Assembly (NCBI GenBank): GCA_040954595.2
Contig: CM082578.2
Location: 6,681,519-6,745,518 of the forward strand
Length of the DNA: 64,000 nucleotides
DNA from: Balanoglossus misakiensis
Taxonomy: Eukaryota > Animalia > Hemichordata
Direction: 5' to 3'
The notes beneath the pieces were generated by a model that saw nothing but the letters and a program-made list of their open reading frames with translations, made no database searches and was not told the origin of the DNA. Both the position numbers and the translations under genes were made by a program. Positions 12,001-50,703 of the stretch are shown piece by piece (within the stretch, counting starts at the first letter, position 1; each line of letters begins with the position of its first letter).

Positions 12001-15000
12001 AGGCATCTTTGTAGACTTGAGAGCCGGGTTCATTGAATGTCTTGGCATTCTTGACCATCAGCAGCAGGTCTTTCTCAAGCGCATTCAATGAATTGTACTG
12101 TTCATTCTGTGAAGAAAGATGGATACCATTTTCACAGCTTTCCAAGTTCTGTACATAATTTCAACTGCAAAATCAAGGCAATGAAGATTTTTTTCTTTCA
12201 GTTTTAAAAGCTTCCTCGCTTCAGGAAAGCAGCAAGCTATACTAAAATAAAATACAGGCAAATTGGAACTGAAATCAAGGTAAAGGGGAATACTAGTATT
12301 ATGGTGGTAGTACATCATAATTATATATGAGGAAAAAATGCTGAGAATATTGTATTACGCTTACTCCTCACATTACAATGCTGCAGTGTAGTGTAGTGTA
12401 GTGGAAAAGGATATAATGCAGCTACAAGACCACAGTACATACCTTGATCTTTTTAGCAATGATTTTCATGTCTATAGGGTTGTTGATGACATCATAGTAC
12501 TCGGGATACGCCGACCTGGCTGGCAGTTTTCTGAAGAGGAGACTGGTGTACCTCGCATTGGCGTCTTTATGTGTCATCACCGACGTAAACAACTGCTCAA
12601 AGGGACTATCCGGATTGTCCATGGCGTAGTCGGAATCCTGTCCACTGTCCACTTTGGGTTCCTCAGAGTATTCACCTGCTACCTCATTGATAGATTCCTA
12701 AAATTCAAGGAAATATTATAATATGACTTTTATGAATTACTGGTCACTTCTGTATATTCACTGTAGTTTGGTAAATAACATTTCATATACTATAGAGTCA
12801 TATTCCTTTTATAACAACAAACAACAAACATTGACTTCCATTTTATGATTCAAATGATCACCCTAGACACAGACCTGACATAAATAACTTCTTCATTTAA
12901 CAGAAACTGTATGAGTGTGTTGCAAGTGAGCGCAAATACAGGCTGCATGCTTTTAAATAGTTAACGCAAAATGGCACATAATCCTTCACACACAACCTAA
13001 AAATAATGATTTAGACTCCTTCCACATTTTCAAAGTTTATAGAGAAGACTGCTTCAAACACGATTACACCATCTGTGGCAATATATCAACAGTGAAGGGG
13101 AGGGCTGCAACTCTGCCTGTCAAAATTCTGACAATATTGCATGACTTTTAGTACCTATGGCTAAACTAGGAATACTGCTATTCTCATTATGAGTAGCTAC
13201 CATGGTCAGGTGCAATATATGCGATGCTCTGAGTCCCTGCACGCATTGATCAAAGGGCGACACTGTCTCGCCTCCAAACTCCTAAACTATAATGAAGGAA
13301 TCATAATGGCACAGAAAGAATGAATGAACAAATCATAACTGAGTGAGCGAGTGGGTGGGTAAATCAGGAAAGAAAAGAAGGTTGGGTTTGAAAGATGGGT
13401 CAATCATTACTGGGGTTGGGTGGGGGGGATCTTTGCATGCTGAAGTGTAAGACCCAGTCAGCACCGTGAAGAGATCTGTACTCCAAAAGGTCACCTGAAA
13501 TAGGAAAAACATGCAGGAGAGGGCAAGAAGGTACATTTATAAGTAGTGATGAAAACACATGCAACAGAAGAGAAAGAAAACAGTGACGGAAGTTGAAGGT
13601 GAGTTTTTTAATTGGACATCTTGGAGGTGGAAGACATGGGAGGTGGTCGGCATAAAGTTTTCATCTTTCTGACAGCCACTGCCTTCTAAGTAGTAGTAGT
13701 AGTTCTAGTGGTAGTAGTGGTAGTAGTACATGCATGGCTATACCTTGATCACTACATGCTTCTCCCCTTTTTTAATGTTACTGTCCTGGTCTTCCACTTG
13801 TGAGGATCGGATTGATCTCAGAGACCCCTTTCCGAGATCGCCGACCGACTTCTTTTCCTCTTCAATCTTGTATGATTTCGCAGCCGGCTGGGCCTCTTCC
13901 AAATTTGCTGGTTTCTCAAATATGTCACTACTGGCTTCCTTGGGCAAGCTGCCTGCTTTAAATTTTATACTGCTGGTCACGTTTAGCGGAGCCTCTAACA
14001 TTTCCCCTGAATTGGAAAGTTCGACATCTTGGAATTTGTCTCGAAGTCCCCACTGAGATTTTTCTGCACGCTGGGGCATGGTGTCTTTGTCTGTCATTCT
14101 ATCCTTGGATTTTTCTTCATTGGGTTTTCCTTGTTCGACATCCATGGGTTCGGACGCTGCTACTGTCTTTGACGCTGGTGGGTCACCTACATCTGATGAC
14201 GATGTGGCAGCCATGACCTTCACGAGAACGGCTTCAGGCTTTTCTTCACGGACAGAGGGAGCCTCCGAGTCTCCGCGATCTGACGCATCCCTTCTTTCAG
14301 AAGTGGAGGCAGCAGAAACAGCAGTGGGAGTGGTAGTACTAGTAGTAATGGTAGCAGAACTAGAGGCAGAGGGCTGAGAGTTAAGTTGAAAAGACAGTTA
14401 GCTACTTTTCTCCAACACTGAGATGAATGCAAAGTGAGATTTTTTCATTTATTAAAGTTATTATCTGGGAAGGAAGGGTGAACACTGTGATATTTACAGA
14501 GAGTACCTTCTAATACCACAGAATTGTAAGAGAGAGGACAGTTATAGGAATCAAAGGGATGGTTAGCTATATCAGTCTGCTGTGGTGATACCATACACAT
14601 AGCATAGATACAACATCCAACACCACAGTGCACACACATGCAGGACAGTTGGTTAATGTCTATTTAGTCAATATCATGCTCTCCTCCCACTTACCTGGAA
14701 AGTGTGTTTATTATTTATTCAGGTCGACACAGAATAGTGCAGTGTGTATGTCAAAGCGTGTTCTCTATCCATGAACTGTTTAACTCACCTCATCGCTCAT
14801 TTCAGTCGTACTGCCAGATTCGGCCGCCGGAACTGGATCAGCGGTAAACGACTTCTCTGATTTTTCCGATTCGTTCTTCCCAGGGGGCTCAGCATGATCA
14901 GACTCCCAGTCGTCTGCTGCCCCATGGCCGCTCAGTTCCTCGTTCTCTTCCAGGATCTCGTTCTTGGTTTCCACGTACAGGTCCCAAAGGTCGCACGCAT

Positions 15001-16215
15001 CTTGGTACTCCTGAGAATCTTTCTGTGTTGGTGAATGACAATACACAACATTAACCCCTTGAAGCCTGACCCCTTGATGACCTGTATATTATAAGGCAGT
15101 GGGGCCTTTAATACCATTAAAACAGGATGCAATGGGTCAGTGCTCAGCGTAGCTTGCTATGCTATCAGAAGTCAAATTCCTTGAATAATACTTTTTACCA
15201 ATCTTTTGAATTTATCATCACCTATGTTGTTTCCTACGAGAAACTGTCTTGCTTGTGTGAATTTTGACCTTTGGTTTGAATCCATGGCAAAACTGGACCG
15301 ATGCACTCAAAAATGAGGCAAAAGAGTTTAACCCTTTCACCCCCAGTTCCATCTTTAGAGGTCCAACCTTATCATAGACAACTTACAATGGGTTAGGACT
15401 GAATCATGGTGGTGAATTGGATTAAGAGAGAACAGCTACCTTGAAGAATGCTTTGGTGTTGTTAACCAGAAGTTCAATATCATGGGTCAGTTGGTCAATG
15501 GTCTCGTACTCGTCCATCTTCAACTTCTGTTGGACCTTCAGCAAATCGATGGGCACAGTCACCACATCGTAGTAATCTGGCAGTGATCTGAAATCAAGAA
15601 GTTGAGGACGCAAGTTTCACTATGTACAGATGCATGAAATAAAAAGTTATACACTGTTGAGATTTAAGTCAACATATGATAGAGAAACCAACCATACCTT
15701 CGTTTGGGAACTCGGACAAAGGATTCACAAAGAAGTCGCCCATCATCATCTTTGTAATTTCGAATGGTTTCATACAATTCTTGACATATATCAGCCTGCA
15801 AGAGGAGGCAAGGTCTTAGGTGGAAAATTAACAACAGTGAAGTACATTATACATTGTACCAGTAAACTCTCACAGATTCACTCACCACCTTCACAAACTT
15901 ATTGAGTGTGTGCTCTCAACATTCCGCAAGCAAGCCAGTTTCGGATACTTCTGAGTGTCTATAGCTCTGCTACATGTATGCACAAGTAAAAGTTGGGGAG
16001 GCTGGTGTTTTTCATACAACTTCAATAAACCACATTTTGCAATATTAACTGTGCAACAGATTGTTTCCCTTTAAAAGAAATTAAAACAATGAATGTACCT
16101 GATCCACAGTCTGGGTCACTGATCTCTTTCTCTTCTTTGCTGCTACAGAGACAGCAGCTGGTGGTGGCTCATCATCTCGAAAGTCTGATGTTACTGATCT
16201 TCTTCTCTTAGACAT
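1..16215 (-). CDS. PBRM1: Polybromo-1 (BAF180), multi-exon; 3' end lies beyond the window start
   Basis: ATG at 16215 (MSKRRRS...). Six bromodomain segments (e.g. [13 protein letters not shown] 15440-15587, [14 protein letters not shown] 12444-12697, [12 protein letters not shown] 11234-11558, [14 protein letters not shown] ~9735-9867, [10 protein letters not shown] ~8305-8472, [30 protein letters not shown] 7432-7911), two BAH domains ([30 protein letters not shown]; [28 protein letters not shown]), an HMG box ([11 protein letters not shown]...[16 protein letters not shown]), then zinc-finger and Gly/Met-rich exons. GT-AG boundaries keep the frame. Non-coding first exon near 17141-17240. Confidence 0.97.
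6716..6775. mobile_element. Degenerate inverted fragment of the same MITE
   Basis: TTAACCCTTTCACACCCATGGT...CCATTG resembles the reverse-complemented right end of the family. Confidence 0.5.
7960..8174. mobile_element. ~215-bp TTAA-flanked palindromic element (piggyBac-like ends)
   Basis: TTAAACCTTTCAAG ... CCTGAGAGGGTTAA with internal inverted pair ACTACGCGGATAG / CTATCCGCGAAGT. Confidence 0.5.
8554..8702. mobile_element. Degenerate MITE ending ACTGTA (Tc1/mariner-like end)
   Basis: AAACCTGTGTATATAGTGGCC ... GGCCACTATATACAGG...ACACAGGTTTTACTGTA inverted repeats. Confidence 0.5.
9616..9710. mobile_element. ~95-bp piggyBac-type MITE, copy in PBRM1 intron
   Basis: TTAA-CCCTTTCACC...GGTGAAAG(TAT)TTAA; internal sequence similar to copies at 15328 and 63734. 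Confidence 0.75.
15328..15425. mobile_element. ~95-bp piggyBac-type MITE, copy in PBRM1 intron
   Basis: TTAACCCTTTCACCCCCAGTTCC...CATGGTGGTGAA...TTAA; same family as 9616 and 63734. Confidence 0.75.
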
Positions 16216-17199
16216 GATTTCTTCTTTCTTCCCTAAGAAACAATGAAGGAATACAAAGACAGTGGTCATCACTTTGTGTTGAATTTGTCAAATGAAGCAA
16301 TGAGCCTAAGGCGTCATGTGAGGTGATACAGCTAACAATGTCCAATTCCCCCCCCCCCCCCCCAAAAAAAGGATATGTACATGTATCTGAGGTTAATAGA
16401 CTCTCTATCACAAGGAGTGTTTTATCATAGACTGACTGTAGACTGATGTGACTCCAATTACGTGTGTATGTATATATATATTTTTAATTTTTTATGTATA
16501 TATGGTGGGGGTGTCAAATTCCCCTAGAACATTTGACAGGACACATGTACTTATAACCTCTTCAGTGAAAATTCATTGCAATGGGCAGACTGTGGGGGGT
16601 GGGGCCAGCCTTTGCCTGAGCAGGAGGCTGGAGTTCTTACCGACAGAATTAAAGTACACACACATGTATGTGCATCAAACACTTTGACAACTCAATTATC
16701 TCAGCATTTTCAACATTTCCAAATTATATTTCCCGGAATAAGATTCATAACCTTCAAAACTACAGAATGTAGCACGAAAGTCGAAATTGAAAATACTGCA
16801 AATTTGGTTTCACAAAGCTACATCGTCGGGTCACTGGATCCGGAGCTCAAAATTAACCAGTTTTTAACGGTGGGTGTAATAACGTGACCACGAAAGTACA
16901 CGTGATGATTTTGTAAACAATACAACACATGCATGCGCGTGGATGTAGTAGTACTTCCGTACACAGTGTGTACCGCTGTACGAGAAAATGATCAAGCTGA
17001 ACAAAAGAATGCACAGCAGAACGATAACAAAGCAGACAGCCTCGACACATTTCACACCGACACAAAATCGTTTCACCGCAAACGGTTATCAACTGCCAGG
17101 GAAGGGTTAGCAATGCTGCTATTTCACAGATGAATCTCACCTGGATTTTAAGTGGTAACGCAGGCCTTCCTTCCTACAGCTGTTTTCGATGAGTCGACC

Positions 17200-17529
17200 A
17201 TGCGAATGATCAAACTTTGCGCCCGATTCACGCCGCGGCCATACTATCATGCATTTGCGTGTTGAGAGTTGCGCGACCTCGTTCACAGATAAAGTTTTGA
17301 ATTTCCTTTAGATTCCATTTTAAATGTTTTACCTCTTTGACATACACAAACCGCAAATTGTATTATATTGTAAAATAAATATGTAAATAATGTTAAATTT
17401 GTTACTATGAACAGATAATCAAATATCGCTTTGAACAAGGATGACCTTTGACCGCAGCTGACCCACGTGTATCTGTGACTTCACCGGAGAATCCATACGA
17501 CAGAGTGTACAGCGAAATACGACTTGAAA
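17200..17529. promoter_or_regulatory. Probable bidirectional promoter PBRM1/GNL3
   Basis: Divergent first exons about 300 bp apart, CpG-richer edges, CACGTG E-box near 17464. Confidence 0.6.
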
Positions 17530-20500
17530 ATGGTTAAAAAGGGAAGAGCAAGTAAGGATCTTGTTTCCCCCTTCCATTTCTTATTATATTCTGTTTTCTT
17601 CTATAGAAACAATTAACCAGAACCCGCTTGTTTAAATGTTTGTGTACACAGGAAAGATGAAGAGCAAGCGCATGACGTGTCGACGGAGATTCAAGATCGA
17701 AAAGAAGGTATGGTATTATTTCACACCTAGTTGGGTGATTGAGCAATACACATGTACTTGACACATTCCAGCTGTCGATCGATCTTTTAGAAAAAGTGAC
17801 TGTCGATGGTATAGATGTACAAATACATAACATACATACAGTGATACAATTACATAACATACATACAATACATGCATACATGTACATACATACATACATA
17901 CTGTACATACATACATACATACATACTGTACATACATACATACATACTGTACATACATACATACATACATACAAAATGCGCATACATACATACATGTACT
18001 TACATACATGCGTACGGTACACACACACACACACACAAACAAACAAACATGTGATTTACCGTAAGCCATAACCACTGATAATCACCGTATTCCTTAAAAT
18101 GATGATGTCAAGCTTGATAAAATCATTATATTTCTTTCAAACAGTCTAGAGTATGTACATTGAGTAAAAGATACTGTGGAACAGGTGACCAATTGTCTTC
18201 TTCCATACCCTCAGTGACATTGTATGTTTCATGCACAGGTAAAAGAACATCACAAGAAATCACGGAAAGAGGCCAAGAAGAACCAGAATCGACCCAAAAT
18301 GAGAAAAGATCCTGGTGTGCCGAACATGGCACCATTTAAAGAACAAGTCCTTCGGGAAGCTGCAGATAGGAAGCAGAGAGTATGTACACATACAATGTAT
18401 CAAGCATACACACACGCATATACATACACTATTGTAATTCCATAATACAGTATGTGTACATACTACTAGTATGTACACCACTGTCCATTGTATTTATATT
18501 TCAATCTTCCTTGAATCTGTATTTTCAAAGCTATTTTACTTTTAACATAAATCATTAACAATTAATAGCATGATTTATTTCCATAAACATTGGGTTCCAT
18601 GACAGTTGCTCAAAACACATCTATCAGCATTTTAAACTGGCTGCTGGGTCAGGGGTTAGAGTTAGTGACACCCCCCCACCTGGAGTGTTCACAAAGAATA
18701 TATCATCTGTTCAGTGCAAATATTTTATGTGAAAATTAAGAATTGTACGCAGATGAGAAGTTGGGTGTGCGACGTATAACCTCTCCAACTTTGAATTGGA
18801 GATTTAAGTGTAATATGTTTATATGCTCTTTTCGTATACAGGCTGAAGAGGAAAGACAAAGGCAAAAAGATCAGCGACAAAAGTTAAAGGCAAAAAAGAG
18901 AAATTTAGCAAGTTTGGCAGATGAAGCTGAAAAGAAACAAAAGGAATTTGAGAAAAAGGTTTGCGGAGTTTGTTCTTTCATGGTTTTACACAGCAGATTC
19001 CAGAAATTCATTTTTCCAGTGCATGAGAGAAATTCTAGCATGCGGCCAAGAAATCCAATATATCTTTATCGGAGAGTTTAATTACCATTGATAACAAATA
19101 TAACAGCTGAAACATTTTTTCTCCATCACCAACAGAATGCCTTCATGAAAGAAATTTCCTCTGCGAAGTATGATGCCGGCAGTGGAGTGGAAAATTCCAG
19201 GAAAGCTTACTACAAAGAGTTCAGGAAAGTTGTGGAAGCGGCAGACGTGGTCTTGGAAGTGTTGGATGCCAGAGACCCACTGGGATGTCGATGTCCACAG
19301 GTGGAACAGGCCATCATAGCATCAGGAACAAACAAGAAAGTTGTGTTGGTACTCAATAAAATAGGCAAGTTTTGCATCATAGAAATAACATACATGTGCT
19401 TTGGATATAGTTATAGTGCCAGCCCTGACTGACAAAAATGGGAAAAAAGTTTGCTTACTGTGTTCTCTGCCATTGAACTATATCATCCGTCAAAGATTCT
19501 TGCTTCTACTTGCAAGAAAGTAGTGGGCCATCTGATAGAAAGTTGCACAGAGATCATTGGCTCATTTTCTGGCGCTGACAAAATCGCATCATCTAACAGT
19601 TACAAAAAAGGGTACTCACTCACTCACTGGACTTCTCTGCCTATATTGATACACCCCAGATCTTATACCAAGGGATGTGACAGAAAAATGGCTCAAACAT
19701 CTTCGAAATGAATTTCCAACAATAGCGTTCAAAGCCTCAACACAGACACAGAAACAAAATTTGGTGAGTAGTGACTTATCCTTTGTCTGATTCCTTGCAA
19801 TCTTTGAAGTACCACTCATAGGTAACCTACAAAATGTATAGGCTAGCCAATGAATGATCACAATGTCAACTCAAATAACATTCTTCAGAATCTTGGGACA
19901 GATTGAAACATGCCATAAAAGTTTGAAAAGAAAATGTATTGTGACAGTATATGTATGACAATCTTTCAAATAAATGAAAGTTCAGATGGCAGATTCCAGA
20001 GCACAAGTTTCACATTTATACTTGACGTGTACACAAGAAATGGCATAATTTTTGTAAGCTGTGCTTAATATTATAATATCCTAAAGCTTGAGATCATACA
20101 CAGCTATGTGCATGAGATAATGATTCCATCATTGTGTCTTTATTCTCAGTCGAGGAGTAAAGTGCAGCTAAATATAGCCAAACAGGAATTGGTGGAATCA
20201 AGTGTGTGTTTAGGAGCTGACTCGTTATTAAAATTATTGGCCAACTACTGCAGGAGTGCTGACATTAAAACGTCTGTAACAGTCGGAGTTGTTGGTAAGT
20301 TTTTTCGTATGCCAGACAGATGTGTGGGCTTTTCATATCAGACATAAGTAATAATTCTGAGTGAGTTTTGAACCACGTTATGAAAAAACTGTATACATGT
20401 ATACTCCTGACACACAAAGAATGATACTTTGAAGTCAACTGCTAATAACAGAAAGAAGAGATTATTCCTTCAGAGCAAAGAAGGGAAAACATAACTATAA

Positions 20501-23500
20501 TCTTATACTATTCTTGTCTTTTTTGTAGGATTTCCGAATGTTGGTAAAAGCAGTCTTATAAACAGTCTGAAAAGAGCCAAATCATGTGTTGTTGGCAGTA
20601 CACCAGGTCTTACAAAGTGAGTCATAATTAGCTGACTGTTATATTAGCATTATGATTAGCCAGATTTTAGCACTGCAATCAGGGACTTTGCAACACATAG
20701 CAATTGTGTGGCAGTGTCCCTTCTCAAAATTGTTTACAAAATATCACAGCCATTGTCTCAAGTGTAAAGTGATTTGACCCTAGTTGTAACTTTCTTCAAA
20801 TGCAGGGCGATGCAAGAGGTGCAGCTGGACAAACACATCAAACTCCTGGACTGTCCTGGAATTGTCATGGCAACAGCCACATCTGAAGTTGCCATGGTGT
20901 TGAGGAATTGTGTCAAGGTGAGTTGGGGTACCTGGCTTTCAGAACAGACTATGGACAGTGATGGGTGAACACAGTCAAGTTTCCTTGGTTGTTTTATATT
21001 ACTGTGATTTAATACATACAGATTTTACAGAACAGTTACCTCCAGTGTAAACAGTGTTGTCAGTCTGCTTGTCTTGTCTGTTTTGTCAGTGACAACATAA
21101 TTTCTTGATCATGTTGAGATCGACTTGCCTTATAGAAAGACTCAAGTCCAGTTGACTATTTTACACTATTTTTCAAATTTTTTTACTTCTTTACACTATG
21201 AATGGAGATTGCAGGTTTGCCCATGTTACTGTGACAAAACAATCACTGAGTGAAACAGCTAAAATTTAGACTTTGAATTCCTTGTCCTCATATTTCTTTG
21301 TTCAGATTGAAACCCTAGCAGATCCAATCACACCAGTGGAAGCCATAGTGAAAAGGTGCAACAAGACACAGGTGAGAGATTTACTCAGTCTCCATGTAAA
21401 TTTACACCACTGATCGTTACAAGGTGCAGATCTTGAGAGATGACATGGCACATACATGTATGTTCAAGTTTGAGAACAGGTACATGTAGGATGTTTGTAC
21501 TACTGTAACATGTAACTGTAAAATGTTTTTTTTTCATGACAGGAAATTTTCGCGATATCAGAAGAAGCAACTAATATGCGAGAATTCATTTTGGCGTTCT
21601 CGTATTCCACTAACTGCATCGTTATCTCCGAAAATTATTTTATGCGACTTTTTATTTTTGTGTTTTTTATAAATTTTCGCGAAATACGCGAGAGCCAAAG
21701 CGAAAATAACCCGTTTTACCATATGCAATATTACAATATATTTAACTTTATCAAAGCTAAAAGTGGTCATATTTTTCCTCTACAGCTTTGTCTGTATTAC
21801 TCAATCCCAAATTTTGAGAGTGTTGGTGAATTCCTGGCATTGTTGGCCAAGAAACAAGGGAAACTCAAGAAAGGCGGCGTTGCTAATGTTGACAAGGCAG
21901 CCAAGACTATTTTGACAGATTGGAACAGGTGAGTTGTTGTCTGTGGAGTCCTTGCATGTGAAATTAAGTTATTCAATTGGAAAAATACTTGTGCAGGAAA
22001 AGAAGTGAGGAAGCCTGCACAACTCTCCACTTTAACCACCATGTTTTGGTCCTAATCCACTGTTGTCTGTGGTAATGTTTGATCTCTACATAGGGAAATG
22101 GGAATGTGGGTTCAATTTCTGCATTTTTCTTCGGTGCAGTCATGATTTTTAGGACCCAGTGGTTTGTTGTGTTAGATTCCTGTTCAGATGAATTTTGCTT
22201 CCCTAATGTGTACATCTCTCCCCATGGTCTCTTCCCAGTGGTAAGATCACATACTACACCCATCCCCCAGAACAACATACCCTACCAACCCACATCAGCG
22301 CTGATGTTGTCACTGAACTCAGTAAAGCTTTTGACGTCTCTGCTCTGGAGACAGATGAGAAACAGATGCTGGAAGGTAAGCGAATACTGGGTGTTTGTTT
22401 TCAGAATTCTGATTGTGTCACACTTTTTTGTCTTTCTCCTGGACCAAGAAAACACATACCCGAAAACATCTGGCTCTTCAATTCTGATTCATTTTCAAGG
22501 TGTCCAATTCACCCATTGGAAGAATACATTTGTGTCAGCATACCCCTGTGAACTGCAGCAAGTATGATAACCTAGATGGGTTCCAAATGACATATCACAC
22601 AAACTGTGGTCTCACTTGATAGACCATCATCACTTGCAATAGAGCAGGTGTATATTAACCCTTCCACCACCATTGTTCAGTCCAAACCCATTGTTTTCTA
22701 TGGGAAGGATAGACCATGCATGTTATAACCTGATGGAGTTCAAGCCTGAATCCAAATGTTTGATACTCTTTTAGGTCTTAGCAGTGTGAAAAGCAGTCGC
22801 TCCATCTTGTTCGAATCCACTGGGCTGACTGAGGGCGCTGTGCAGGATGAAGAACTGGAGAGTGTCGGCGATGAGAGGGAGGAGCAGGAAGGGGTGGAAA
22901 CTGAAGACATGGATGCAGAGAAAGAGGAGGAGGAAGATGAAAATGTTGGTGCAGATGAAAATAAAGAGGTAAATTAACTTCTTTGATTGAAGACGTTATT
23001 TTTCACGACGGGCCTGATAGAATGCTGTAGCCTATGTGGAGATAGAGCTGCTAATTGTAGAACAGCCTTCATGTTGGTTTTGATCATTCGTGCCGTCTGC
23101 CTTTGAGCTCTGACAACAGCCAAACATATTTAGTAGCATCCAAGATACCTGGTATATTGTGTAAAAATACACCAATAGGCTTGCCATTTACCTGTAGTCA
23201 AATTGACTGGCTCATGTCACTGAGCCTCGGTAAGTCTTAGGTTCAGACAAAAAAATGACAATCCCGATAATGAGCATTGTACTTCAATACCTTTTGCGAG
23301 GAAAACATTTTAATTTAAAAATCAAAACACTTGGAAATGCCGTACTAGGGAAACAGATTTGAATATATCCCTTCCATACCAGTGGGTGTGTATAGGTGCA
23401 GTAACATTTTCCAGTTTGGTCACGTAGATGTATGTCAAAATGCTTTGAAGACACTCTGTGCCATTTTCTTTCAGATGGGAGCGGTCACGATAGAATTTCA

Positions 23501-24149
23501 AGGCAAACGAACGTCAAGCAGAATCAAACTTCTGAAGGAGTTGAAAGAGTCAAAGAAGACCAACGTGGGTGCCGCCCTAGAAGGAAATTTACAGCTCGGG
23601 AAAGAACTGAAGAAGAATATGAAAAAAGTGAAGAAACAGCGAAGGCGGGCAGGTCAGTCAAACATATATTCCAAGGTTGTTCTCTGTGCCCTGGGAGTAA
23701 ATTTTCATTCAGTCTGTTTTGTTTCAATGTTATTGTGAAGAAGTAATGTTCCACATTAATTATGCCACATTTGTAGACTTGCAAAAATTTCCCATTTTCA
23801 GTATTCATTTTTTTGAGTCAACTATAGCATGTTCATTTTGATGTTAACCAAGATTTTGCTGCTGTCAAAATTGTGTTAAAAATGTATTAGGTATTTGAAA
23901 TTGTCAGAATGAATCATGCAAGTTTCATTTGCTGGCAAGGGCATACAAGCATCAACAGGCAAAACTTAGCCACAGTAACTCAAATAAAGGGTTCTCTGAA
24001 AAAAACAAATAACATATTTTTAAAATCTCTCGTTTCTTCCAGACAACTTGGCCACCAAACTGTCGGATGATCTAACTGCCGCCATGAATTTCTCCCTGTC
24101 TGGTGATGGTGGAGACGATTCCTACAACTTTGGCACAGACTACAAGTAG
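17530..24149 (+). CDS. GNL3: Nucleostemin/GNL3-family nucleolar GTPase (GNL3/GNL3L co-orthologue), multi-exon
   Basis: Spliced N-terminus [49 protein letters not shown], circularly permuted GTPase motifs [15 protein letters not shown] (G4), [14 protein letters not shown] (G1), DCPG (G3), KLKKGG, C-terminal [11 protein letters not shown] with TAG at 24147-24149. Confidence 0.95.
17815..18048. repeat. (CATA)n / (CA)n microsatellite in GNL3 intron 2
   Basis: Runs of TACATACA interrupted by CTG, followed by (CA)n and (CAAA)n. Confidence 0.95.
21515..21723. mobile_element. Probable degenerate MITE in a GNL3 intron
   Basis: CpG-rich TTTTCGCG/CGCGAAA inverted motifs between ACTGTAAAA and GTTTTAC ends, atypical of the surrounding intron. 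Confidence 0.4.
22655..22715. mobile_element. Truncated, inverted copy of the same MITE in a GNL3 intron
   Basis: TTAACCCTTCCACCACCATTGTTCAGTCCAAACCCATTGTTTTCTATGG is the reverse complement of the right half of 63734-63826. Confidence 0.65.
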
Positions 24150-28079: not shown

Positions 28080-28138
<59 letters not shown>

Positions 28139-28288
28139 AATATTAAGAACTTACTTGGAATAGCGTACCATCGGTGCAGATATTTTTAGCACATGGTTTT
28201 GAGTCAGCAATTCTGGGACAGATAATTTCATATTGTTCGATTGGCTGATTTCGCTTGCCCCATTCCGATGTTTGTATTCATCACTCAT
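24618..28288 (-). CDS. DUS4L: tRNA-dihydrouridine(20a/20b) synthase DUS4-like, multi-exon
   Basis: First in-frame ATG 28288 (second at 28231); APMVRYSK|LAFRTLVRK, DLAFTPMIVSDSF, PLIVQFAANNA, GVDLNCGCPQ, GYGAHLL, SIKIR, ITVHGRT, PVVANGD, MAARGILQNPAMY, FHHHLIQM; TGA at 24618. Confidence 0.95.
28077..28138. repeat. (AAAT)n microsatellite in DUS4L intron 1
   Basis: About 15 perfect AAAT units. Confidence 0.97.
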
Positions 28289-28774: not shown

Positions 28775-36277
<7,503 letters not shown>

Positions 36278-41195: not shown

Positions 41196-44100
41196 TTAGG
41201 GGTTGTAATGGCACGACGTGACGTTGGGCCCACCCTCCTGTTTGACTTGAAAGGTGTCGGTGAAATTCGGCAGTTGGTGAGCCATGTTAGCCGAGTCCAA
41301 AGGCTGGACGTTGGGACTGTGGCCTGACGTGCCCGGCATCATTGTCCTCTCGTGCATTGGATTGTGAGCCGACGAGACAGGTGGCATGGCTGTCCTGTTC
41401 TGCATGCTGCCGCCCTGCTGCAGGTGATGGTGCAGTGCTGGGTGGCCCGGGTAATTGTCGATGTTCGGAATATGGTCAATGAAGCTGCCGGGCTCAAAGC
41501 CGGAGGCGACCACTGTGGGATGATGGATGCCGTAGCCGCTGTCTGCCGGCTCCTGCTTGATGTGAAATCCCAGGCCGTTGGGTGGTCTTTGAGACTCCTC
41601 AGGCGGCTCCTGCTTCACAAGGGTATTCATGGAAGTCGCCTGGGCGGTCGCCAAGAAGTCCTGGTTGTCGTAGTTGATGGGCTGAAGTTGTGACGACTCC
41701 AGATCCCTCTTCTCCGCCTTGACCAGGGCTCCGGCCCCTCCCTTTGACTTCGACTTGGGGGGAGGTGGGGGTGGTATGATCGGATCCGGGGAGTGGGGGC
41801 GGCCTGTCAGATCATTCCGCAATTTTTTCAACTGGAGGTAGAAGGGCACTTTGTCGGTTGCCCGGGGAAACTGGGAGCATCGAGCACTTGAAGAGGGCAT
41901 CACGAAAACAACCTGATAAACAATGAACAACACAAACGACAGAGGAAATTGGATAGATTAGAATGTATCCAAGCTGGGCACCAAACCCTGTCATATTTTC
42001 TGCCACAAAGTTGTGACATGTGATAAAGAGAACAGGGAGAACCAAAAATCTGTCAAATATAAAACGACGGCTTGAAACGACTAAAAGTGTTATTGTCCTG
42101 TTGCTAAAGTGTGAATTTTTTTGTCTGCACACAGTTGCATTCAGGCAGAAGAATGGACCAAGGTCACGGGCCAAACAATAGAGAAACTCCCTTTGAATCA
42201 TACTGCACTCACTGTCAGACACATCTGTGTTTCTGCTGCCAATGCCTTTGTGTGTTCTCTTTAGACAAACCGTGCCCTCGATCAATACTACATTCATATG
42301 CTTCAAATACAGTGCTAAATGGGAATAGCAATCAAATAAAACGATTTTGTTTCCAACACAAAGGTGCACATAGGATCTTATACCAGAATCCCTATGCAGA
42401 AAATTTATTAAATAGAATTTAAACAAAAAAAGACCCTCCTACCGTATCCGTGCCTTCTATAGGTTCCGGTTGTCTGCCAATTTCAAAGTCCTTTTTACCA
42501 CTGAATATCTCGTAGATGCCTTTGCCATTGAAGCACACAATTTTTGGTGTGTATTTCTTGATCTTCTTCAAGAGCTCTATACCTCCCTCTTTGATTTCTT
42601 TTCTGAAGTTCAGATTTTTGGGGGGAGGGGGGGGGGGGGGGGGCGAACAAAACAAAAATCAATAAGCTTGTGTATCTTGCAAAGCCCATTTTTTTCACTG
42701 AAGATGTTTACAATATAGATAGAAGAAGCTATTTCAACAACCACCATAATGATGAAAAGATAAATACTTAATAGTGTCACAAGAAACATTTTAGAATACA
42801 TCCTCAATAATACACACCCACAAAAAAGATCTATCCCCACATTTTAGCAGTTTTTCACTCATACGATAAATTTTCCACACAAACGAACCTTGTCAAATCA
42901 GCACTTCCTCTGCTGGTCCTCTCGACGATATTAGTAAAGCCAATCCCGAACTCCTTCAGTCTGACATCATCCAGACAGGTCATCGGTTCCGGTATCAATC
43001 CAGACAGATACAGACACTTCCCTGCAAGGTGTAAATTATGTGACGCATCCGGGATGAGAAACTCGCTTTTTGGCATGACAATTTCCCCCCATCCTTTGTT
43101 TTCAGCTACCTGAATAATTACCCGTTTTTAACGAGGGCGTTGGACTTTGATCAGTTTGGGACAGACTGCACAGGCAGCTGACTACCGTAAGTACTGTATT
43201 TCCAAGCAGCACATTGCTATTTATTTATTTCGTGCATATGATAACATATGTGCATGTTTGTGCATTTGCCATCTGTTCATACGTCTGTTCAAAATCCTAG
43301 CCCGACATTTCATCACTGAACAGAGACTTTCCAAAGCCAGACAAGTGGCAAAGTAACAGTGTGTAGCTAGTTGTGTTTTTGCAACTTACAAGTGACCTAA
43401 AGGTGGTATCACAGGTTAAAAGTACCAGCCCTGCTTTCTGTGGTACTCATAATTTACTAAACTTAAACAGTTACTTTTGGGGTTTTTTAGTCAAAGAATA
43501 GTATTGAGTGAGAAATAAACCTACAGAAGTGATTTCCAGGCCCAGCATAGTGATGACCTTTGAAGGCAGCATATAAACCAGGATTGATTCCGACCTGCAA
43601 ATTAATATGAAACACTCAAAGTTATCAAGGGCTGAGAGAGCACACAGGAGGACAACCTGGAGACGAACTTGTGGCTCAATAAATATTCACAACATCATAG
43701 ACACAAATTTATCAAAATATCTTGTATTGTTAAATATTTTCAAATTAATATGATTTGTACTTTCTTATCTGAATGCTTAGTAACTAAAGCCACCTTCATT
43801 ACAAACAGATAGGTGAATCTCATTACCAGCCATAGTAAAGAGACACAGTTACAGCTCCAACAATAAATTGGAATTTTAGGATAAAATATTACAGGGTTGA
43901 TGGAAACATGAACCAAGCAACATTTGTAGATAATTCACCCTGCTTTGACAAACACAAGTAACATAAAATAACAGATGAATACTGTAAAAAGAGATGGACA
44001 CATATTGTCACGAAAAGACACATCATCACAAAGACAAATACGGAGGGGGAAACTCAGAAACTGAGAACCTACGATAGCTATATCAAGGTTGTAGTCTAAG

Positions 44101-45522
44101 TGATCTGGCAGTGTTCTCTTGAGAACCTCCTCTTCGGGCATGCCTTGGAACCTGTCCACTTTCCTCCTCTTCTTGGCCGGAAAGGCGTCTGTTATTTTCT
44201 CCTGCTTGACTTTCTTCTTCCGTCCCTTTGCCGGAGTGTTTGAGACCGTCGGCTGTTGGAGTTGTTGCAGTTGGTGTTGTGGTTGGTACATGGGCTGCAT
44301 CTGCATCATTTGGTGGTGATGTTGTTGTTGTTGTTGATGATGATCATAGTGTTGCTGTTGTTGTTGTTGATGATGATGCTGTTGTTGTTGTTGGTGGTGG
44401 TGGTGGTGATGGTGGGGGTAATCAGGTGGTTCTATTTTGATCATGTGCGGGTCGGGTGGTTCTATCTTCACCATCGGGTGACTAGTGACAAATTCAGAGC
44501 GACATACAATGTAGGTGCAAGAATTATACTCAGATCTTTTGCCTTTTTTATCTTTAGCTGTAATAGTATGCCTGCTTTTGGCACATCAAAAAATATATAT
44601 ATATTTTTGCAGCTACGTACTGCAGTGTATGGCTTCTGAAGAAAAAAAGCTGAAAACTTGGAAAAGAGACATTTGGGGTCACAGTTTAGGGATGCACCAG
44701 TGCCACAGCTGTGTAACTGGAACACGTTACTTTCTTGACGCAGTGACCAAAAAACACTATTATGAGACTTCAGTTTCTACTTAAAGGTCAAGGGTCAAAA
44801 AGCAACATTCCAATTTCCCATGATTCAAATTACATGTATACAACTACATTGTATTATGTAACCCTACAAATGCAATATTTTTGACACTGTTACATTTTTG
44901 ATATTTTGTGGTTCTACATAGTCAAATAGTGTGTGGTTGCCATACATGGTTTGATATATGCAATTACCGGATCATGGTAATTAGGATTTTTTTTTTGTAT
45001 TAGAGACCATTGCTTTGTGTACGTAAAAACATACATCTGTATTCAAAATAACGATTTCTATGTGACACTGATATATTCTTGAAATCCATCACTTCAAACC
45101 ACCATTGTTAATTTGAAAGTGCTTTAATTAAACAGCCGTGTTTGGAATTTTCTATACTAGCCTATTTACTGAGTTCTACAGTACGCTAGCCTATTTACTA
45201 AATGTAAACTAAACCTGAAAATGGTGGTCTTACAGACTTGACTGCTGACGGCTAGAGACATGCACAATTTATTTCACATTTATAAACAGACTCCTTGGTG
45301 GAAAGGCTAGTGACGGTTTTCTTTCAAATGCGTTTTACAGTTGGAGATAATTTGCATATTATTGTTTTTGAAAGGCGATTTAAATGCGTGAATCTCATTT
45401 AGCATACACATTCACACTGTCCTCATTTTGTGTTGTTGCGACTTGCTAATGTTACATACAACGTACGTATATACTTACAAATACGGGCTGGATTGATGGG
45501 GTGGTGGTTGTGGGTAGTCCAT
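41196..45522 (-). CDS. TDG: G/T mismatch-specific thymine DNA glycosylase, multi-exon
   Basis: ATG 45522 ([15 protein letters not shown]|HPMVKIE); [28 protein letters not shown]|[87 protein letters not shown]; TAA at 41196. Confidence 0.96.
44310..44415 (-). repeat. Coding CAA/CAT/CAC trinucleotide repeat encoding poly-His/poly-Gln in TDG
   Basis: [35 protein letters not shown] in the TDG N-terminal exon. Confidence 0.9.
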
Positions 45523-47171
45523 GTCTACCTCAATTCTGCAAAATAAAGAACCAGGAAAAAACCGTTAGCCACATACACGTGTCGATGTTTTAAGGCATTT
45601 AAACAGAACCTTGAACGTGAAACGTACATGCGGTTCACCAACCGTTCGGCTCAAATCCAACCACTTGTAAATTTCGCTTGTGGTTGCCAGAATCATATAA
45701 TTATATTCACACGATGAAAATCTTGAGCGCGGAAAAGATTATTTTAAACGCTGAAAGAAGAAGAAGGTGAATCAGGACAATATACTCTACCGTATTTTGT
45801 GATCTTGAAAGCCAAAACGATCCCTTTTGCGAGAACAATGAAGCTCTCTGCAGATGAAAACCGGTTGTCGAAAATATTTCGGGTCACCGCTAACGGCGCT
45901 ATTTTAAAAGGCTGGCAAATTTGTCGAAGGCTAGCAATTCAGTCTTCTCGTCATTATTGTCGGTTTACTGTGCAGAACTACTTCTTTTCTCGTTTAACAA
46001 AAAATATGCCTCTCCGGAAATGATATTTTCAAAGTATTTTGCCAAGTGGTCTTTGTCTCGCCAGCGCTGACACGGGAAGAGATTGTGCAAACAAACTGTT
46101 CAAACATCCTTTCTCTATGGGCTCGTAGAGGGCTCCATAACAGTGTCAGCTGCCATGCATTCTTGCAGATTCTTGTGCATGGTCCTGGGGACCGACCATC
46201 CTCAGCTCAGTATCCACGGAGAAGGGCTAATATATCAATTTGTACATTTATTGGGTGGTAAAATAAGCGGATATCCGCTCATAATATAAAAACAGCAGTA
46301 TTATTTTCTTTATGAAAGTTTTTGGTCTTTCCAGTATTGAAATGACTCGGGGATAAGTTGGGAGATATTTTCAAGAAAACTTTTACGGTGAAAAGTTCAA
46401 TCAAATTATTAATCATAAACATTACAACAATATTAAGTAGAAAACAGTAACATTACACAGCAGTTTCTACTATTTATATTTGTGAACTGTATATCCCGAC
46501 TTTTAGCAGCTGAAGGAACACAGAGAGGCGCCTGGCAATGATATGCTGTAAAAGTTGCATTGAAAGTTGCGGCACTTGAAGAATGGCTGATATAGTAACA
46601 AATTAGCTTTTGTCCGGGGCTTTTGTACAGGAGAGTTTCCCTAGAACAGAAAACTGGCTACATAGTTGAAAGGGGAAAAAAGTATTGTAGGATTATTTCC
46701 CAATTTCAAATGTCACCAACATTTTATTTCTTACCTATTTAGGAGGTTATTTGTCTGTGATATAATTATTGTAAGTATGTACAAATGTACTATGTATCAA
46801 CTGTATCAAACATATTACAATATTATATTAATGAAAGTAAAACTGATAACTTATAAATTTAATAAAACCATTCAACAAATCAACGCCTTGTGCGCAATTG
46901 CAAACTTTATCATATAACATGAATCCGAAACAGTATTACAAATCCAAACCCGATTTCGTATAACAGACATGCATGACATCATTTGACCTCGACAATACCG
47001 GTTGATCTGACAGAAGTATTGCATGCTCGTACGTGTACACAGTCAATTTTGCCCCTTTTCGGCGAAATTTGGAGATAACATTTTCACGCCAGCGAGTAGC
47101 CAACCTCCAACAGTCGAAAGGAAAAGCTAAATAGTCGATATAACATCGGCTGCCAACCACGTCCAAAGTCG

Positions 47172-48182
47172 ATGACCGAGTGGCAGAGCAGACGACTGCG
47201 TCGTTTGCTGCAGAAGTGGCCAGGCAAGAATTATTTCGGAATCTACAGATTTTTGCCGCTTTTCTTTTTCGCCGGAGCCGGTATAGAATGGATCATGATA
47301 AATGCTAGAATAGCACCTGGTGGAGAAACATTTTGTAAGTGTTGTCGCTTGGTGTTTGACCCGGATCTGGTTCTCTTAGTGGACACGACTATACCCCATG
47401 GCAACGATACCATGGCAATGAGGGTGAGTTAGGGTTAGGGTTAGGAGGGTTAGGGGTGGCAATGTGAGGGTGAATTTAACCCTAACCCTAACCCTCCTAA
47501 CCCTAACCCTAAAAAACCATATTATCGCCCGTGGAGTATAGTCGTGTCCACTAAGAGAACCAGATCCTTTGACCCCCCCCCCCCCTTACTAGATTACATA
47601 CACCCGCATGACCCGGGATGGTACCAAGGTCAGGGCAACGCTTGTATACAGTACATGTGCGTGCGTGCGTGCACACTGTTCAAGTAGTATATTTGCATTA
47701 CTGGCCGATTGATCGATCCACGTCCCTTTATGGACATATCAATATTGAATCACTCATTTATGTAGACTTATGCATAATACCACAATCTGCCTGTGCTATA
47801 TTTTTTTTTATATCAAAGAAATTGAAGCATTTACATCAGTTGCCATAGTAATTAGTAAAATTCTAAACCTGGCATCTTTGTAAAATGTTGAAACTGAGTT
47901 TTATTTCATGAAATCTTGCAAACTGAAACAGGATAAGTGTTGATCTGGTTACATTTTTCAAAATCCAGTGTTGATCCGTGGCAAATTTTGAGAAATGGAA
48001 AACTCCACTCAATAAACAGTAGACAGTAGACTTTCAAAAGAGCGAGGGAAGATACCTTGTTTCTTACATAATAATGGCTAGGTCCTGCAGTTCAGAACCT
48101 CTTTTGTGTTATTTTCCCAGATGATGTACATCGAAGGAAACAAGCAGAAAGATTAGCCGAAGAAAATTCTGTGGATAACTAA
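47172..48182 (+). CDS. UQCC5: UQCC5/SMIM4 (sloth1 homologue), complex III assembly micropeptide, 74 aa; exons 47172-47334 and 48121-48182
   Basis: MTEWQSRRLRRLLQKWPGKNYFGIYRFLPLFFFAGAGIEWIMINARIAPGGETF|YDVHRRKQAERLAEENSVDN*. Family hallmarks PGK..FGIYRFLP.FF..G..EW.MI and ETFYDV.RRK; phase-1 GT-AG intron. Confidence 0.95.
47363..47567. mobile_element. 205-bp non-autonomous TIR element (MITE) with internal inverted telomeric repeats; 8-bp TSD
   Basis: 32-bp perfect TIR GGATCTGGTTCTCTTAGTGGACACGACTATAC / GTATAGTCGTGTCCACTAAGAGAACCAGATCC; direct repeat TTTGACCC at 47355-47362 and 47568-47575; internal TTAGGG and CCCTAA arrays. Lies in the UQCC5 intron. Confidence 0.9.
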
Positions 48183-48247
48183 ACTCAAGAGATCTACTGC
48201 AGTACACAAGTTACACACAGCTTTATACTACAAGAATACACTTCAAG

Positions 48248-48961
48248 ATGCCTGCTGGAGTGACCTGGTCACAGTATCTGAAGTTTTTGACTGCAGGGCT
48301 GGTGACCATGATGGCTGGAGCCCAGCTGGTTCATATAATTTATGGACCTGATATGGTAATTGATGCACATCATGTTTGTGCACGTTGTTAATTTTTGCAT
48401 TAATTGCAAAATATCTCAGGGTGGACGGAAATCACCAATGAAGGATGGTTAAACCAATCAAACATTAAGAAGGACATTTTTACATTTACGAAGATTTCAA
48501 GGTCATTCTGGCAGTTATGTTCCGCAGTACCTGAGACGCAAGAAACAAATGTGTTATGTCCAAGCACAAGATACACTGCAACACACACTTTGACAGATAC
48601 AGGATAAATATTTTTGTGGCCTTTCAACTTTCGAATAGTGACAGCCTCTGGGGGGGGGGGGGGGGTATTACAGAGTATTTACTGAAGAAAAGGACACACT
48701 AACATTTAATAGGCACCTTCTTCATTTTCAGATTTTGTTTGAAAAATTGACAAAGTCCACACATATAAAAAAAAATCAAAGAAACACTTTAAGATAAAAA
48801 ATAATCAAAAGTTGCAACTACTGACGCTTTAAAAATGATGTGATCAACTAATGCTTGTTTTATAACTCTTCTTTTGTTTGTAGAGCATACGAGGCCCTGG
48901 GGAACACCCTGACATACCACCACCTAGAGATCCAACAGAAAACCAGGGAGAGAAGAAATGA
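48248..48961 (+). CDS. UQCC6: UQCC6/BRAWNIN (C12orf73, sloth2 homologue), complex III assembly micropeptide, 61 aa; exons 48248-48355 and 48884-48961
   Basis: MPAGVTWSQYLKFLTAGLVTMMAGAQLVHIIYGPDM|SIRGPGEHPDIPPPRDPTENQGEKK*. Matches the BRAWNIN signature MPAGV...YLK...M.AGA..VH..Y.PD; phase-0 GT-AG intron. Not in the ORF track. Confidence 0.92.
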
Positions 48962-49832
48962 ATGTGTGTATCCTGGTAGAGTTGAGGATCAGCTGACCTG
49001 TGTGTACACCTAGAGATGTTGGCCACTCATGCTGCAGGGATCACTTTCCATTCATTATCTTCACTCAAACTCTTTGAACTTTATCCAAACTTCTTTTGAA
49101 CTTCTTCCGAATCTTAGTTTTAGGTGTTTACTTGTAGTCTAGGCATCATTTTTGACCCTTTATTACACTGTAAATTGTGTCAGTAAGATTCACTCAGTCT
49201 CTGATCCCAAGGGTGAGCAAGTCGTTTTCTGGTCCACAAGTAGCGAAAGATGACTAGCCCAGCCTAAGTTACATCTGGCCCATAAATCTATTGTCAGATT
49301 TGAAGACAAATAATATGTTGGTTTGTCAGGCAAGTCAGATAGAAAAACTACTAGCCCAGTTATAAAATCTGCCGGCACTAGCCCCATGAGTTGGGCTAAC
49401 GGCCTTGTTCACCCTGGCTTTGATCTGAAATCACTTCTTTCAATCTAGTCGTACCACCTGGATAGATTAATATCATCATGCATGCTGTACTGTATTTTCA
49501 AGATCATACCAAAAATTTTACATCCGTAAAAATGTAAAAATACACACACATAATATTCTTCTTAATAATAGAATAGATTATCAGGAGAGGGATGTAGAGT
49601 GCAGAGTAAGTAGAAGTCAGAACAAACTCATCATATGACCAAGGATGGAGTATACCGTACTGTACCTATAAAGTAGAGATGTTTTTTTTACACAAGCAAT
49701 TTCTTGTGATTTTCTATTTCAGGTAGCAACATTTATTGATATCATCACCAGTGAGCAGTTGAGTATGTTGTAGTAAGGTTCATGTCTAAGACAAATTATT
49801 AAGGAATAATGTAGTTTAACTTGTACTTAACT

Positions 49833-50703
49833 TTAAGGGGACAAAGTCTCTCTCTCGCTGCCGTTTTTCCATTAAAGGCACGTAAGCTGTAACTTTTGGG
49901 ATAATTTTCATAATTTTTGTTTCAAACTGCACTACCATTAGTCCATGCAGATGAAGGCAGTGAACTATGAACAAGCATTATAAACCCTAAATATGAGTGC
50001 ATATGCAAGTTTTAACCAGATAAATAATAAAGCTTTGCCCCAAGCGATTATGGCCGCCACCGTGGGAAAATGCAAGAAACAATGAAAATGTTGCATTTCC
50101 GGTTATGAAACTTCATAAACAAAACATGACCTCATCCACTTGAGCTCATGGAAGTAAATGTACACCACTGAGACATCAGATTTTCACTTTTCATTGCAAT
50201 ATTGCACTTTTTTAAAAATTTCAGGAATTTTCGTTTTTCTTTAATTTTTGGCCATTTTGTCATAAATAAGTGTTGAGCTTGATATATTATCATGAAATAG
50301 CATTTAATAGAAATAATTAAAAGCATATATGAGATTATTTAAAACATTGATTTTTTATCCAGTTGCAGCTTACGTGCCTTTAATTATGTTTGATACAAGA
50401 CACCATTTATGTTAATGTACATGTGTATATGTAGTGAATGGATGTTCTATCACACACAACTTCCATCTCGCTTGTATGATATGAGAATAAAAACTCACCC
50501 AAAATGAAATAAATGGTACAGAACGATTATTCATTTTGGCAAGTTTTTCGTCTTTCGTGTCTACAAGCAGGATGGAAGGTGTGTGGTTGAACGTTGATTC
50601 ACTATACATGTACATGTATATCCACATGTACATTAACATAAACGGTGTCTTGTATCAAACATAATGGAAAAGGGGCAGCGAGAGAGAGACATTATCCCTT
50701 TAA
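49833..50703. mobile_element. TTAA-flanked long-TIR non-autonomous element interrupted by a second insertion
   Basis: Right arm ...CACATGTACATTAACATAAACGGTGTCTTGTATCAAACATAATGGAAAAGGGGCAGCGAGAGAGAGACATTATCCCTTTAA is the imperfect reverse complement of 49833-49874 joined to 50384-50425. Confidence 0.8.
49872..50383. mobile_element. ~510-bp TTAA-flanked TIR element (Kolobok-like ends) nested in the element above
   Basis: TTAAAGGCACGTAAGCTGTAACT at 49872 and AGTTGCAGCTTACGTGCCTTTAA ending at 50383; no ORF of transposase character inside. Confidence 0.8.

What the first reader, a model, noticed from the sequence alone, without database searches (positions are those of the whole stretch)
47172..48961. 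Bicistronic micropeptide gene: UQCC5/SMIM4 and UQCC6/BRAWNIN share one exon
Seen: the UQCC5 stop (TAA 48180-48182) is followed after 65 nt, with no ATG and no AATAAA in the spacer, by the UQCC6 ATG (48248); the exon starting at 48121 ends at the donor after 48355, so one exon holds the end of ORF1 and the start of ORF2. ORF1 has a weak start context (tcgATGa, pyrimidine at -3), ORF2 a stronger one (aagATGc), but five further ATGs lie inside spliced ORF1. Established: both are complex III assembly factors, bicistronic in Drosophila (sloth1/sloth2) and on separate chromosomes in human, so the arrangement is not new in principle. Inference: a three-exon operon-like mRNA in which ORF2 is more likely reached by re-initiation than simple leaky scanning. 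Easily missed by annotation.
Basis: partly seen in the sequence, partly recalled or inferred. Interest (0 to 1): 0.85.

Follow-up and report, generated by a model that had tools for sequence, protein, structure and literature searches.

The report
Two-in-one mitochondrial microprotein gene
An acorn-worm-type genome encodes two tiny respiratory-chain assembly proteins that are likely made from one shared messenger RNA, an arrangement already known from flies and lampreys, and its neighbouring genes suggest that the two human versions were likely separated when early vertebrates doubled their genomes.

Summary
Observation confirmed. ORF1 (74 aa, PF15114, UQCC5/SMIM4) ends and ORF2 (61 aa, PF14990, UQCC6/BRAWNIN) starts within one 235-nt exon, 65 nt apart. 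The only CpG-island promoter lies at ORF1. No RNA of this species was available, but 47 of 80 UQCC5 loci from metagenomes carry UQCC6 just downstream. One contig (L028) is the spliced form of a genomic locus with the same three exons. The arrangement is published for fly, lamprey, sea squirt and choanoflagellate (PMC9681215), and this scan met the pair before in another genome, so it is a new member of a known kind.

Two additions. (1) ORF1 here holds two out-of-frame ATGs with a purine at -3, against one in 21 relatives. ORF2 is therefore likely reached by leaking past ORF1's weak start and re-initiating after a 6-codon internal ORF (inferred, about 45%). (2) TDG lies head-to-head and PBRM1/GNL3 lie 23-30 kb away. 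These are the neighbours of human UQCC6 (chr12) and UQCC5 (chr3), which suggests reciprocal ORF loss after vertebrate genome duplication. I did not find this in print.

The parts
46800..47171 (+). CpG-island-type promoter and 5' leader of the bicistronic gene (start site not mapped)
   Evidence: CpG o/e 1.0-1.4 at 46701-47400 against 0.25-0.4 at 47801-48500; no ATG between 47026 and 47171 (read by eye)
47172..47334 (+). Exon 1 coding part: ORF1 (UQCC5/SMIM4/sloth1) codons 1-54, weak start context, phase-1 donor
   Evidence: PF15114, 75.6 bits; 80% identical to Glandiceps talaboti UQCC5-like
47288..47308 (+). Out-of-frame 6-codon internal ORF with strong start context (A -3, G +4), ending 153 nt before the ORF2 ATG in the spliced message; proposed re-initiation relay
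   Evidence: function inferred
47335..48120 (+). Intron 1 (786 nt), at the family's conserved phase-1 position
   Evidence: same position in L030/L058 versus spliced L028
48121..48355 (+). Shared exon 2 (235 nt): end of ORF1, 65-nt spacer, first 36 codons of ORF2
   Evidence: 227-nt counterpart in L030/L058 is spliced as one exon in L028
48183..48247 (+). Intercistronic spacer: no ATG, no poly(A) hexamer, no strong acceptor, A-rich, weakly structured
   Evidence: YAGs have 9/20 pyrimidines; MFE -4.5 kcal/mol
48248..48355 (+). ORF2 (UQCC6/BRAWNIN/sloth2) codons 1-36, A at -3
   Evidence: PF14990, 62.2 bits
48884..48961 (+). Exon 3 coding part: ORF2 codons 37-61 and TGA; 3' end not mapped (first ATTAAA 49871, first AATAAA 50026)
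41199..45522 (-). TDG, head-to-head neighbour (likely ATG about 45522, 1.65 kb from the ORF1 ATG), with its own CpG island at about 45400-46100; 3' limit approximate
1..24146 (.). PBRM1 (minus strand) and GNL3/GNL3L-type GTPase (plus strand), the neighbours of human SMIM4

Best explanation
The window encodes UQCC5/SMIM4- and UQCC6/BRAWNIN-family microproteins whose frames share one exon, and they are likely translated from one three-exon mRNA in which ribosomes would leak past the weak first start, translate a 6-codon internal ORF and re-initiate at the second gene. SHOWN: both ORFs, family membership, splice signals, a CpG island only at ORF1, an ATG-free spacer, and the same three-exon bicistronic message in a relative. 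INFERRED: the transcript in this species (about 90%); both peptides acting in mitochondrial complex III assembly as in fly and human; the route to ORF2 (leak plus short-ORF re-initiation about 45%, pure leaky scanning 20%, re-initiation after long ORF1 20%, separate message 10%, other 5%). As in the fly, this would fix the ratio of two subunits of one complex. The locus likely shows the pre-vertebrate state, from which jawed vertebrates kept UQCC5 beside PBRM1/GNL3 and UQCC6 beside TDG. The confidence given is for the bicistronic gene, not for the exact route.
For: (anatomy). 47 of 80 UQCC5 loci have UQCC6 downstream on the same strand, 23 with no intron between the ORFs. L028 matches genomic L030 and L058 at 98-99.7% in three blocks with both introns removed. 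14 two-ORF contigs begin with a copepod spliced-leader-like motif and have none in the spacer (primer table of PMC4664967). In 21 dereplicated relatives: spacers 2-133 nt, 1 ATG in 676 nt against 9.9 expected; purine at -3 in 19 of 21 ORF2 starts against 12 of 19 ORF1 starts; 13 of 19 ORF1 starts are weak or have a competing ATG within 10 nt. The window has 2 out-of-frame purine(-3) ATGs in ORF1; the 21 relatives have 1 in total. Short uORFs permit re-initiation (PMC5972666). Fly reporter and cDNA data (PMC9681215).
Against: No RNA, ribosome or peptide data for this species. Out-of-frame ATGs are not significantly depleted in relatives' ORF1 (14 against 16.4 expected; purine class 1 against 3.8, P=0.056), and ORF2, the control, looks alike. 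The strong internal ATG at 47288 is not conserved in the relatives, so it may be incidental. The start-context preference of this lineage is unknown. The relatives are skewed to related arthropod-like lineages and are not independent. At least one lineage has lost the linkage (L012, L020, L029, L044, L045, L054), so bicistrony is not obligatory.
Confidence: 0.85

Rival explanations
1. Same bicistronic mRNA, but ORF2 is reached by plain leaky scanning past all six upstream AUGs, as proposed for the fly gene.
For: Fly reporters: weakening the sloth1 start raises downstream output and an optimal context lowers it. ORF1 has T at -3. In relatives most internal ATGs have a pyrimidine at -3 and spacers lack ATG.
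Against: Here three internal ATGs have A at -3, one with G at +4, so few ribosomes should pass all of them. The fly result also fits leak plus re-initiation.
Confidence: 0.2
2. Ribosomes translate all of ORF1 (or its in-frame 33-codon tail from 47295), terminate at 48182 and re-initiate 65 nt on; this is the first reader's mechanism in its plain form.
For: Short, ATG-free, unstructured spacer. 12 of 19 relatives have a purine at -3 of ORF1 and still keep ORF2.
Against: 74 codons exceeds the usual re-initiation range. No UGGGA core before ORF2 in the window, and in only 4 of 21 relatives. Spacers as short as 2-5 nt occur, and fly ORF2 output is anti-correlated with ORF1 initiation.
Confidence: 0.2
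3. Two mainly separate messages: an internal promoter or trans-splicing gives an ORF2-only RNA.
For: Spliced-leader trans-splicing has a patchy distribution across animals (PMC3342872). UQCC5 stands alone in one other lineage.
Against: No CpG island near exon 2, no acceptor-like site in the spacer, no poly(A) hexamer between the ORF1 stop and ORF2. Even contigs carrying a leader-like 5' end hold both ORFs. The passages read named no leader in hemichordates (weak).
Confidence: 0.1

Closest known systems
Drosophila sloth1-sloth2 (CG32736-CG42308), and its lamprey, Ciona and Salpingoeca counterparts (Bosch et al. 2022, PMC9681215)
   Same: Same two families, same order, one predicted transcript, weak first and better second start context, ORFs out of frame. 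The ORF1 intron is at the same place as in the lamprey sequence of supplement 1 (read by eye).
   Different: Hemichordate-type genome, not in that paper ('hemichordate' has 0 occurrences). The spacer is 65 nt, not 5. There are five internal ATGs, three with A at -3. A second intron after ORF2 codon 36 is kept here. Neighbour synteny is not discussed there ('synteny' and 'TDG' have 0 occurrences in the main text).
Human UQCC5/SMIM4 (3p21.1) and UQCC6/C12orf73/BRAWNIN (12q23.3)
   Same: Orthologous families (PF15114, PF14990). SMIM4 lies in a block with PBRM1, GNL3, GLT8D1, NT5DC2 and STAB1. C12orf73 neighbours TDG in human, and the chicken order is GLT8D2, TDG, C12orf73, HSP90B1. PBRM1, GNL3 and TDG all occur in this window.
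   Different: Monocistronic and on different chromosomes in jawed vertebrates.
Short-uORF re-initiation (GCN4 type) and calicivirus TURBS termination-re-initiation (PMC5972666)
   Same: A 6-codon ORF followed by 153 nt before the main start fits the short-uORF type.
   Different: The short ORF lies inside an upstream coding ORF. There is no TURBS motif 1 core. Nothing was tested experimentally.

Membership tests
UQCC5/SMIM4/sloth1 (PF15114) | Profile match above the gathering score | tested here: met
   75.6 bits against 27 on exon 1 alone; best hit is named UQCC5-like
UQCC6/BRAWNIN/sloth2 (PF14990) | Profile match above the gathering score | tested here: met
   62.2 bits against 27, profile positions 1-36
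sloth1-sloth2 bicistronic gene | UQCC5 then UQCC6, same strand, short ATG-free spacer within one exon | tested here: met
sloth1-sloth2 bicistronic gene | Single promoter upstream of ORF1, none before ORF2 | tested here: inconclusive
   The CpG profile fits, but non-CpG promoters are not excluded
sloth1-sloth2 bicistronic gene | One mRNA spanning both ORFs | tested here: inconclusive
   Seen for relatives (L028 and others); no run was listed for this species
sloth1-sloth2 bicistronic gene | Weak ORF1 start and stronger ORF2 start | tested here: met
   T against A at -3, judged by the general Kozak rule (recalled), not a species-specific one
sloth1-sloth2 bicistronic gene | Both peptides made, mitochondrial, needed for complex III assembly | not testable with these tools
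   Inferred from orthology (PMC9681215)
TURBS termination-re-initiation | UGGGA motif 1 upstream of a closely coupled stop-restart | tested here: not met
Spliced-leader operon | Trans-splice acceptor and 3' end formation between the ORFs | tested here: not met
   No pyrimidine-rich acceptor and no AATAAA/ATTAAA in the spacer; sequence-level test only
2R ohnologous regions 3p21 / 12q23 | Flanking paralogue pairs and a single invertebrate pro-orthologous block | tested here: inconclusive
   GLT8D1/GLT8D2 flank the two loci and the window joins neighbours of both. The paralogon paper covers chr3 45-58 Mb and chromosomes 7/12 (chicken 1), but these genes were not found in its supplements or in those of PMC8040251. 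No gene trees were built.

The most novel reading that the evidence does not exclude
This hemichordate block preserves the ancestral state, TDG head-to-head with a bicistronic UQCC5-UQCC6 gene close to PBRM1 and GNL3. The human genes are the two halves of that one gene: after vertebrate whole-genome duplication one copy kept ORF1 (3p21, beside PBRM1/GNL3/GLT8D1) and the other kept ORF2 (12q23, beside TDG/GLT8D2). This would be a clean case of a eukaryotic bicistron resolved by reciprocal ORF loss, trading translational coupling for separate promoters. In this species the coupling would run through a 6-codon ORF hidden inside ORF1.
Probability: 0.65. Interest if true: 0.58.

Novelty: new member of a known kind. 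Interest (0 to 1): 0.38.

Why it matters
The bicistronic gene itself is published, so this adds a hemichordate member and dozens of further invertebrate examples. What is new is the context. The published account says only that the ORFs 'became unlinked' towards jawed vertebrates. This locus supplies a likely mechanism (duplication and reciprocal loss) that can be checked in lamprey, shark and gar genomes, and it predicts decayed remnants of the lost ORF beside each surviving gene. The locus is also a natural test case for how a ribosome reaches a second ORF across several good AUGs. If the 50-nt rule applies (recalled), the ORF1 stop 173 nt upstream of the last junction would make mRNA stability depend on ORF2 translation.

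Tried and rejected
Expression: no RNA holder was listed for 47000-50100, so no reads were laid; this is no evidence either way. No whole genome is held.

Protein searches: ORF2 found no word-sharing candidate and ORF1 only one. I first took this as a sign of missing annotation, then dropped it: GNL3 is only 59-94% identical per block to the Ptychodera flava protein despite one 100% exon, so the species is a relative that may have no proteome there. No solved structure matched ORF1 exon 1. UQCC5-UQCC6 fusions: 0 of the 47 hits scanned (nearly all over about 100 aa; 47 of 150 listed) carry PF14990.

Splice modelling: my first exon-2 picker chose a wrong acceptor for the window and failed on two loci. 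It was replaced by HMM scoring.

Depletion of out-of-frame ATGs in ORF1: not significant, and ORF2 behaves alike. All 16 serines before the conserved internal Met use TCN, but this codon class is inherited, so I give it no weight. TURBS rejected.

Literature: 0 papers for C12orf73+TDG+HSP90B1, SMIM4+C12orf73+'genome duplication', and five of six GLT8D/NT5DC/STAB names. None of the 25 listed of 778 mentions UQCC5 or UQCC6. Supplement searches of two paralogon papers were blank. No look-alike locus among earlier findings by place. No structure or complex prediction was run, as the interaction is already published.

Full report
OBSERVATION. ORF1 runs 47172-47334 and 48121-48182 (74 codons); ORF2 runs 48248-48355 and 48884-48961 (61 codons). 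The 65-nt spacer has no ATG and no poly(A) hexamer; the first ATTAAA/AATAAA after ORF2 are at 49871 and 50026. ORF1 exon 1 is PF15114 (75.6 bits) and the ORF2 exon is PF14990 (62.2 bits), cut-off 27 each. The best database hit of ORF1 is UQCC5-like of the hemichordate Glandiceps talaboti, 80% identical. The splice sites were tested separately. Acceptor 48121 wins by 15 bits in HMM scoring of all AGs of intron 1. Acceptor 48884 is best of 133 AGs against a relative's C-terminus. Both are pyrimidine-rich, unlike the AGs in the spacer. CpG is high at 46701-47400 and at a separate island at about 45400-46100, and low over intron 1's end and exon 2. This fits one promoter ahead of ORF1.

ORGANISM AND NEIGHBOURS. 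A GNL3-type exon is 100% identical to a Ptychodera flava protein and 89% to Saccoglossus, but the whole protein matches at 59-94% per block. The window is therefore likely an acorn worm related to P. flava. Gene order: PBRM1 (minus), GNL3/GNL3L (plus), a Dus-like gene (minus; weak Pfam hit), COG5 (plus), TDG (minus; likely ATG about 45522), then UQCC5-UQCC6 (plus).

RELATIVES. A scan of metagenome contigs with a 59-protein UQCC5 alignment gave 81 loci, of which 80 were kept. 47 of 80 have UQCC6 downstream on the same strand. Of the 33 without, 26 are genomic with under 2.5 kb downstream and say little. Six have 4.8-5 kb without a hit and one (L012) is intronless. L012 and five of those six (L020, L029, L044, L045, L054) share a convergent cyclin-like gene instead (weak Pfam hit), which points to an independent loss of linkage. 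23 of the 47 have no intron between the ORFs. L028 aligns to genomic L030 and L058 at 98-99.7% in three blocks, so it is the spliced message of a three-exon gene whose 227-nt middle exon holds the end of ORF1 and the first 36 codons of ORF2, exactly as in the window (235 nt). A donor after ORF2 codon 36 occurs in 8 of 24 intron-bearing loci, so this layout is likely old. Fourteen two-ORF contigs begin with a motif matching the copepod spliced-leader primers (PMC4664967, passages and primer table), with none in the spacer. Assembled contigs are not single molecules, so a minor ORF2-only form is not excluded.

HOW ORF2 IS REACHED. I dropped four loci with modelled spacers over 150 nt (L001, L037, L077, L078) and dereplicated 43 loci to 21. 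Spacers are 2-133 nt with 1 ATG in 676 nt against 9.9 expected, as any scanning route predicts. ORF2 has a purine at -3 in 19 of 21 and ORF1 in 12 of 19. Eight of 19 have a competing ATG 4-10 nt before the ORF1 start, and 13 of 19 are weak or so obstructed. All 21 have internal ATGs in ORF1, so these alone do not argue against leaky scanning. Out-of-frame ATGs are not significantly depleted (14 against 16.4; purine class 1 against 3.8, P=0.056), and ORF2 looks similar; these loci are also not independent. The window is the outlier, with two out-of-frame and one in-frame internal ATG with A at -3. The first, at 47288, also has G at +4 and opens a 6-codon ORF ending 153 nt before ORF2; the next out-of-frame ones follow 26-29 nt after its stop. 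Re-initiation usually needs uORFs under about 30 codons in mammals and some distance to reload initiator tRNA (PMC5972666, passages). In the fly, ORF2 output rises when ORF1 initiation is impaired. I therefore infer that some ribosomes start ORF1 while others leak past its weak start, translate the mini-ORF, resume scanning and start ORF2 (about 45%). Rivals: pure leaky scanning 20%, re-initiation after long ORF1 20%, separate message 10%. There is no TURBS core. None of this is tested experimentally, and the 47288 ATG is not conserved in the relatives. By eye, the visible part of lamprey ORF1 also has three in-frame internal ATGs with a purine at -3.

WHAT IS KNOWN. Bosch et al. 2022 (PMC9681215; seen: abstract, outline, passages, all of section 5, and supplement 1 with each sequence cut after about 400 characters; a zip supplement could not be read and may bear on this) describe the fly gene with cDNA, RT-PCR and reporter support. 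They also report the same architecture in choanoflagellate, sea squirt and lamprey, and separate chromosomes in jawed vertebrates. Searches for the bicistron listed only that paper and reviews (listings only). This scan met the pair before in another genome. The finding is thus a new member of a known kind.

THE NEW ANGLE. Human SMIM4 lies in a chr3 52.5-52.9 Mb block with PBRM1, GNL3, GLT8D1, NT5DC2 and STAB1 (PMC5545733, table passage). C12orf73 neighbours TDG at 12q23.3 (PMC11714271, abstract passage), and chicken chromosome 1 lists GLT8D2, TDG, C12orf73, HSP90B1 in a row (PMC12937304, table passage). The window holds neighbours of both: TDG 1.65 kb upstream head-to-head, GNL3 and PBRM1 23-30 kb away. 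TDG is also head-to-head in L013 and L050, and L055 shares L050's upstream exon. That is two lineages among 23 loci with at least 1.5 kb upstream, so the link is old but often lost. Blocks on human chromosomes 1, 3, 7, 12 and X, including chr3 45-58 Mb, form one 2R paralogon (PMC3826523, passages). That NT5DC3 and STAB2 lie at 12q23 is recalled, not from a call. The simplest reading is duplication of the bicistron followed by reciprocal ORF loss. Against: I found no listing of these particular genes as ohnologues, built no trees, could not view vertebrate DNA, and unlinking happened in an invertebrate lineage as well. Bosch et al. do not mention synteny or TDG in the main text, and searches found no paper making this link; subscription journals are mostly not covered. 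Probability about 0.65.

VERDICT. Real, well supported, and largely known. Interest 0.38; up to about 0.58 if the reciprocal-loss history and the hidden relay ORF hold.

Noticed in passing
L028, L031, L036, L039, L040, L048, L066, L068, just upstream of the ORF1 ATG: 8 of 19 relatives have an out-of-frame ATG 4-10 nt before the UQCC5 start opening a 1-12 codon ORF. This may throttle ORF1 and feed ORF2 where the ORF1 context is good.
   Followed up: partly
L012, L020, L029, L044, L045, L054: UQCC5 without UQCC6, followed by a convergent cyclin-like gene: a likely independent break-up of the bicistron in an invertebrate lineage.
   Followed up: partly
L013:230-1109; L050:1989-3254; L055:232-732: TDG head-to-head with UQCC5, as in the window.
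   Followed up: yes
window 48182-48355: The ORF1 stop lies 173 nt upstream of the last exon junction (135 nt in L030). By the recalled 50-nt rule it would invite NMD unless ORF2 is translated.
   Followed up: no
window 24600-35500 and 63245-63568: Dus-like gene head-to-head with COG5, and a segment resembling the HBP1 N-terminus (recalled, no Pfam hit). Their human counterparts cluster at 7q22 (recalled), a third arm of the same paralogon.
   Followed up: no
window 47395-47570: Inverted-repeat element in intron 1 with TTAGGG/CCCTAA-type units in its arms, probably a small mobile element (by eye).
   Followed up: no
window 57200-63600: CpG islands at about 57300-57800 and 58100-59200, and a C2H2 zinc-finger exon at 59460-59750.
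   Followed up: no
L051 and L064, upstream of UQCC5: A different head-to-head neighbour, resembling a MOB-family protein (recalled likeness).
   Followed up: no
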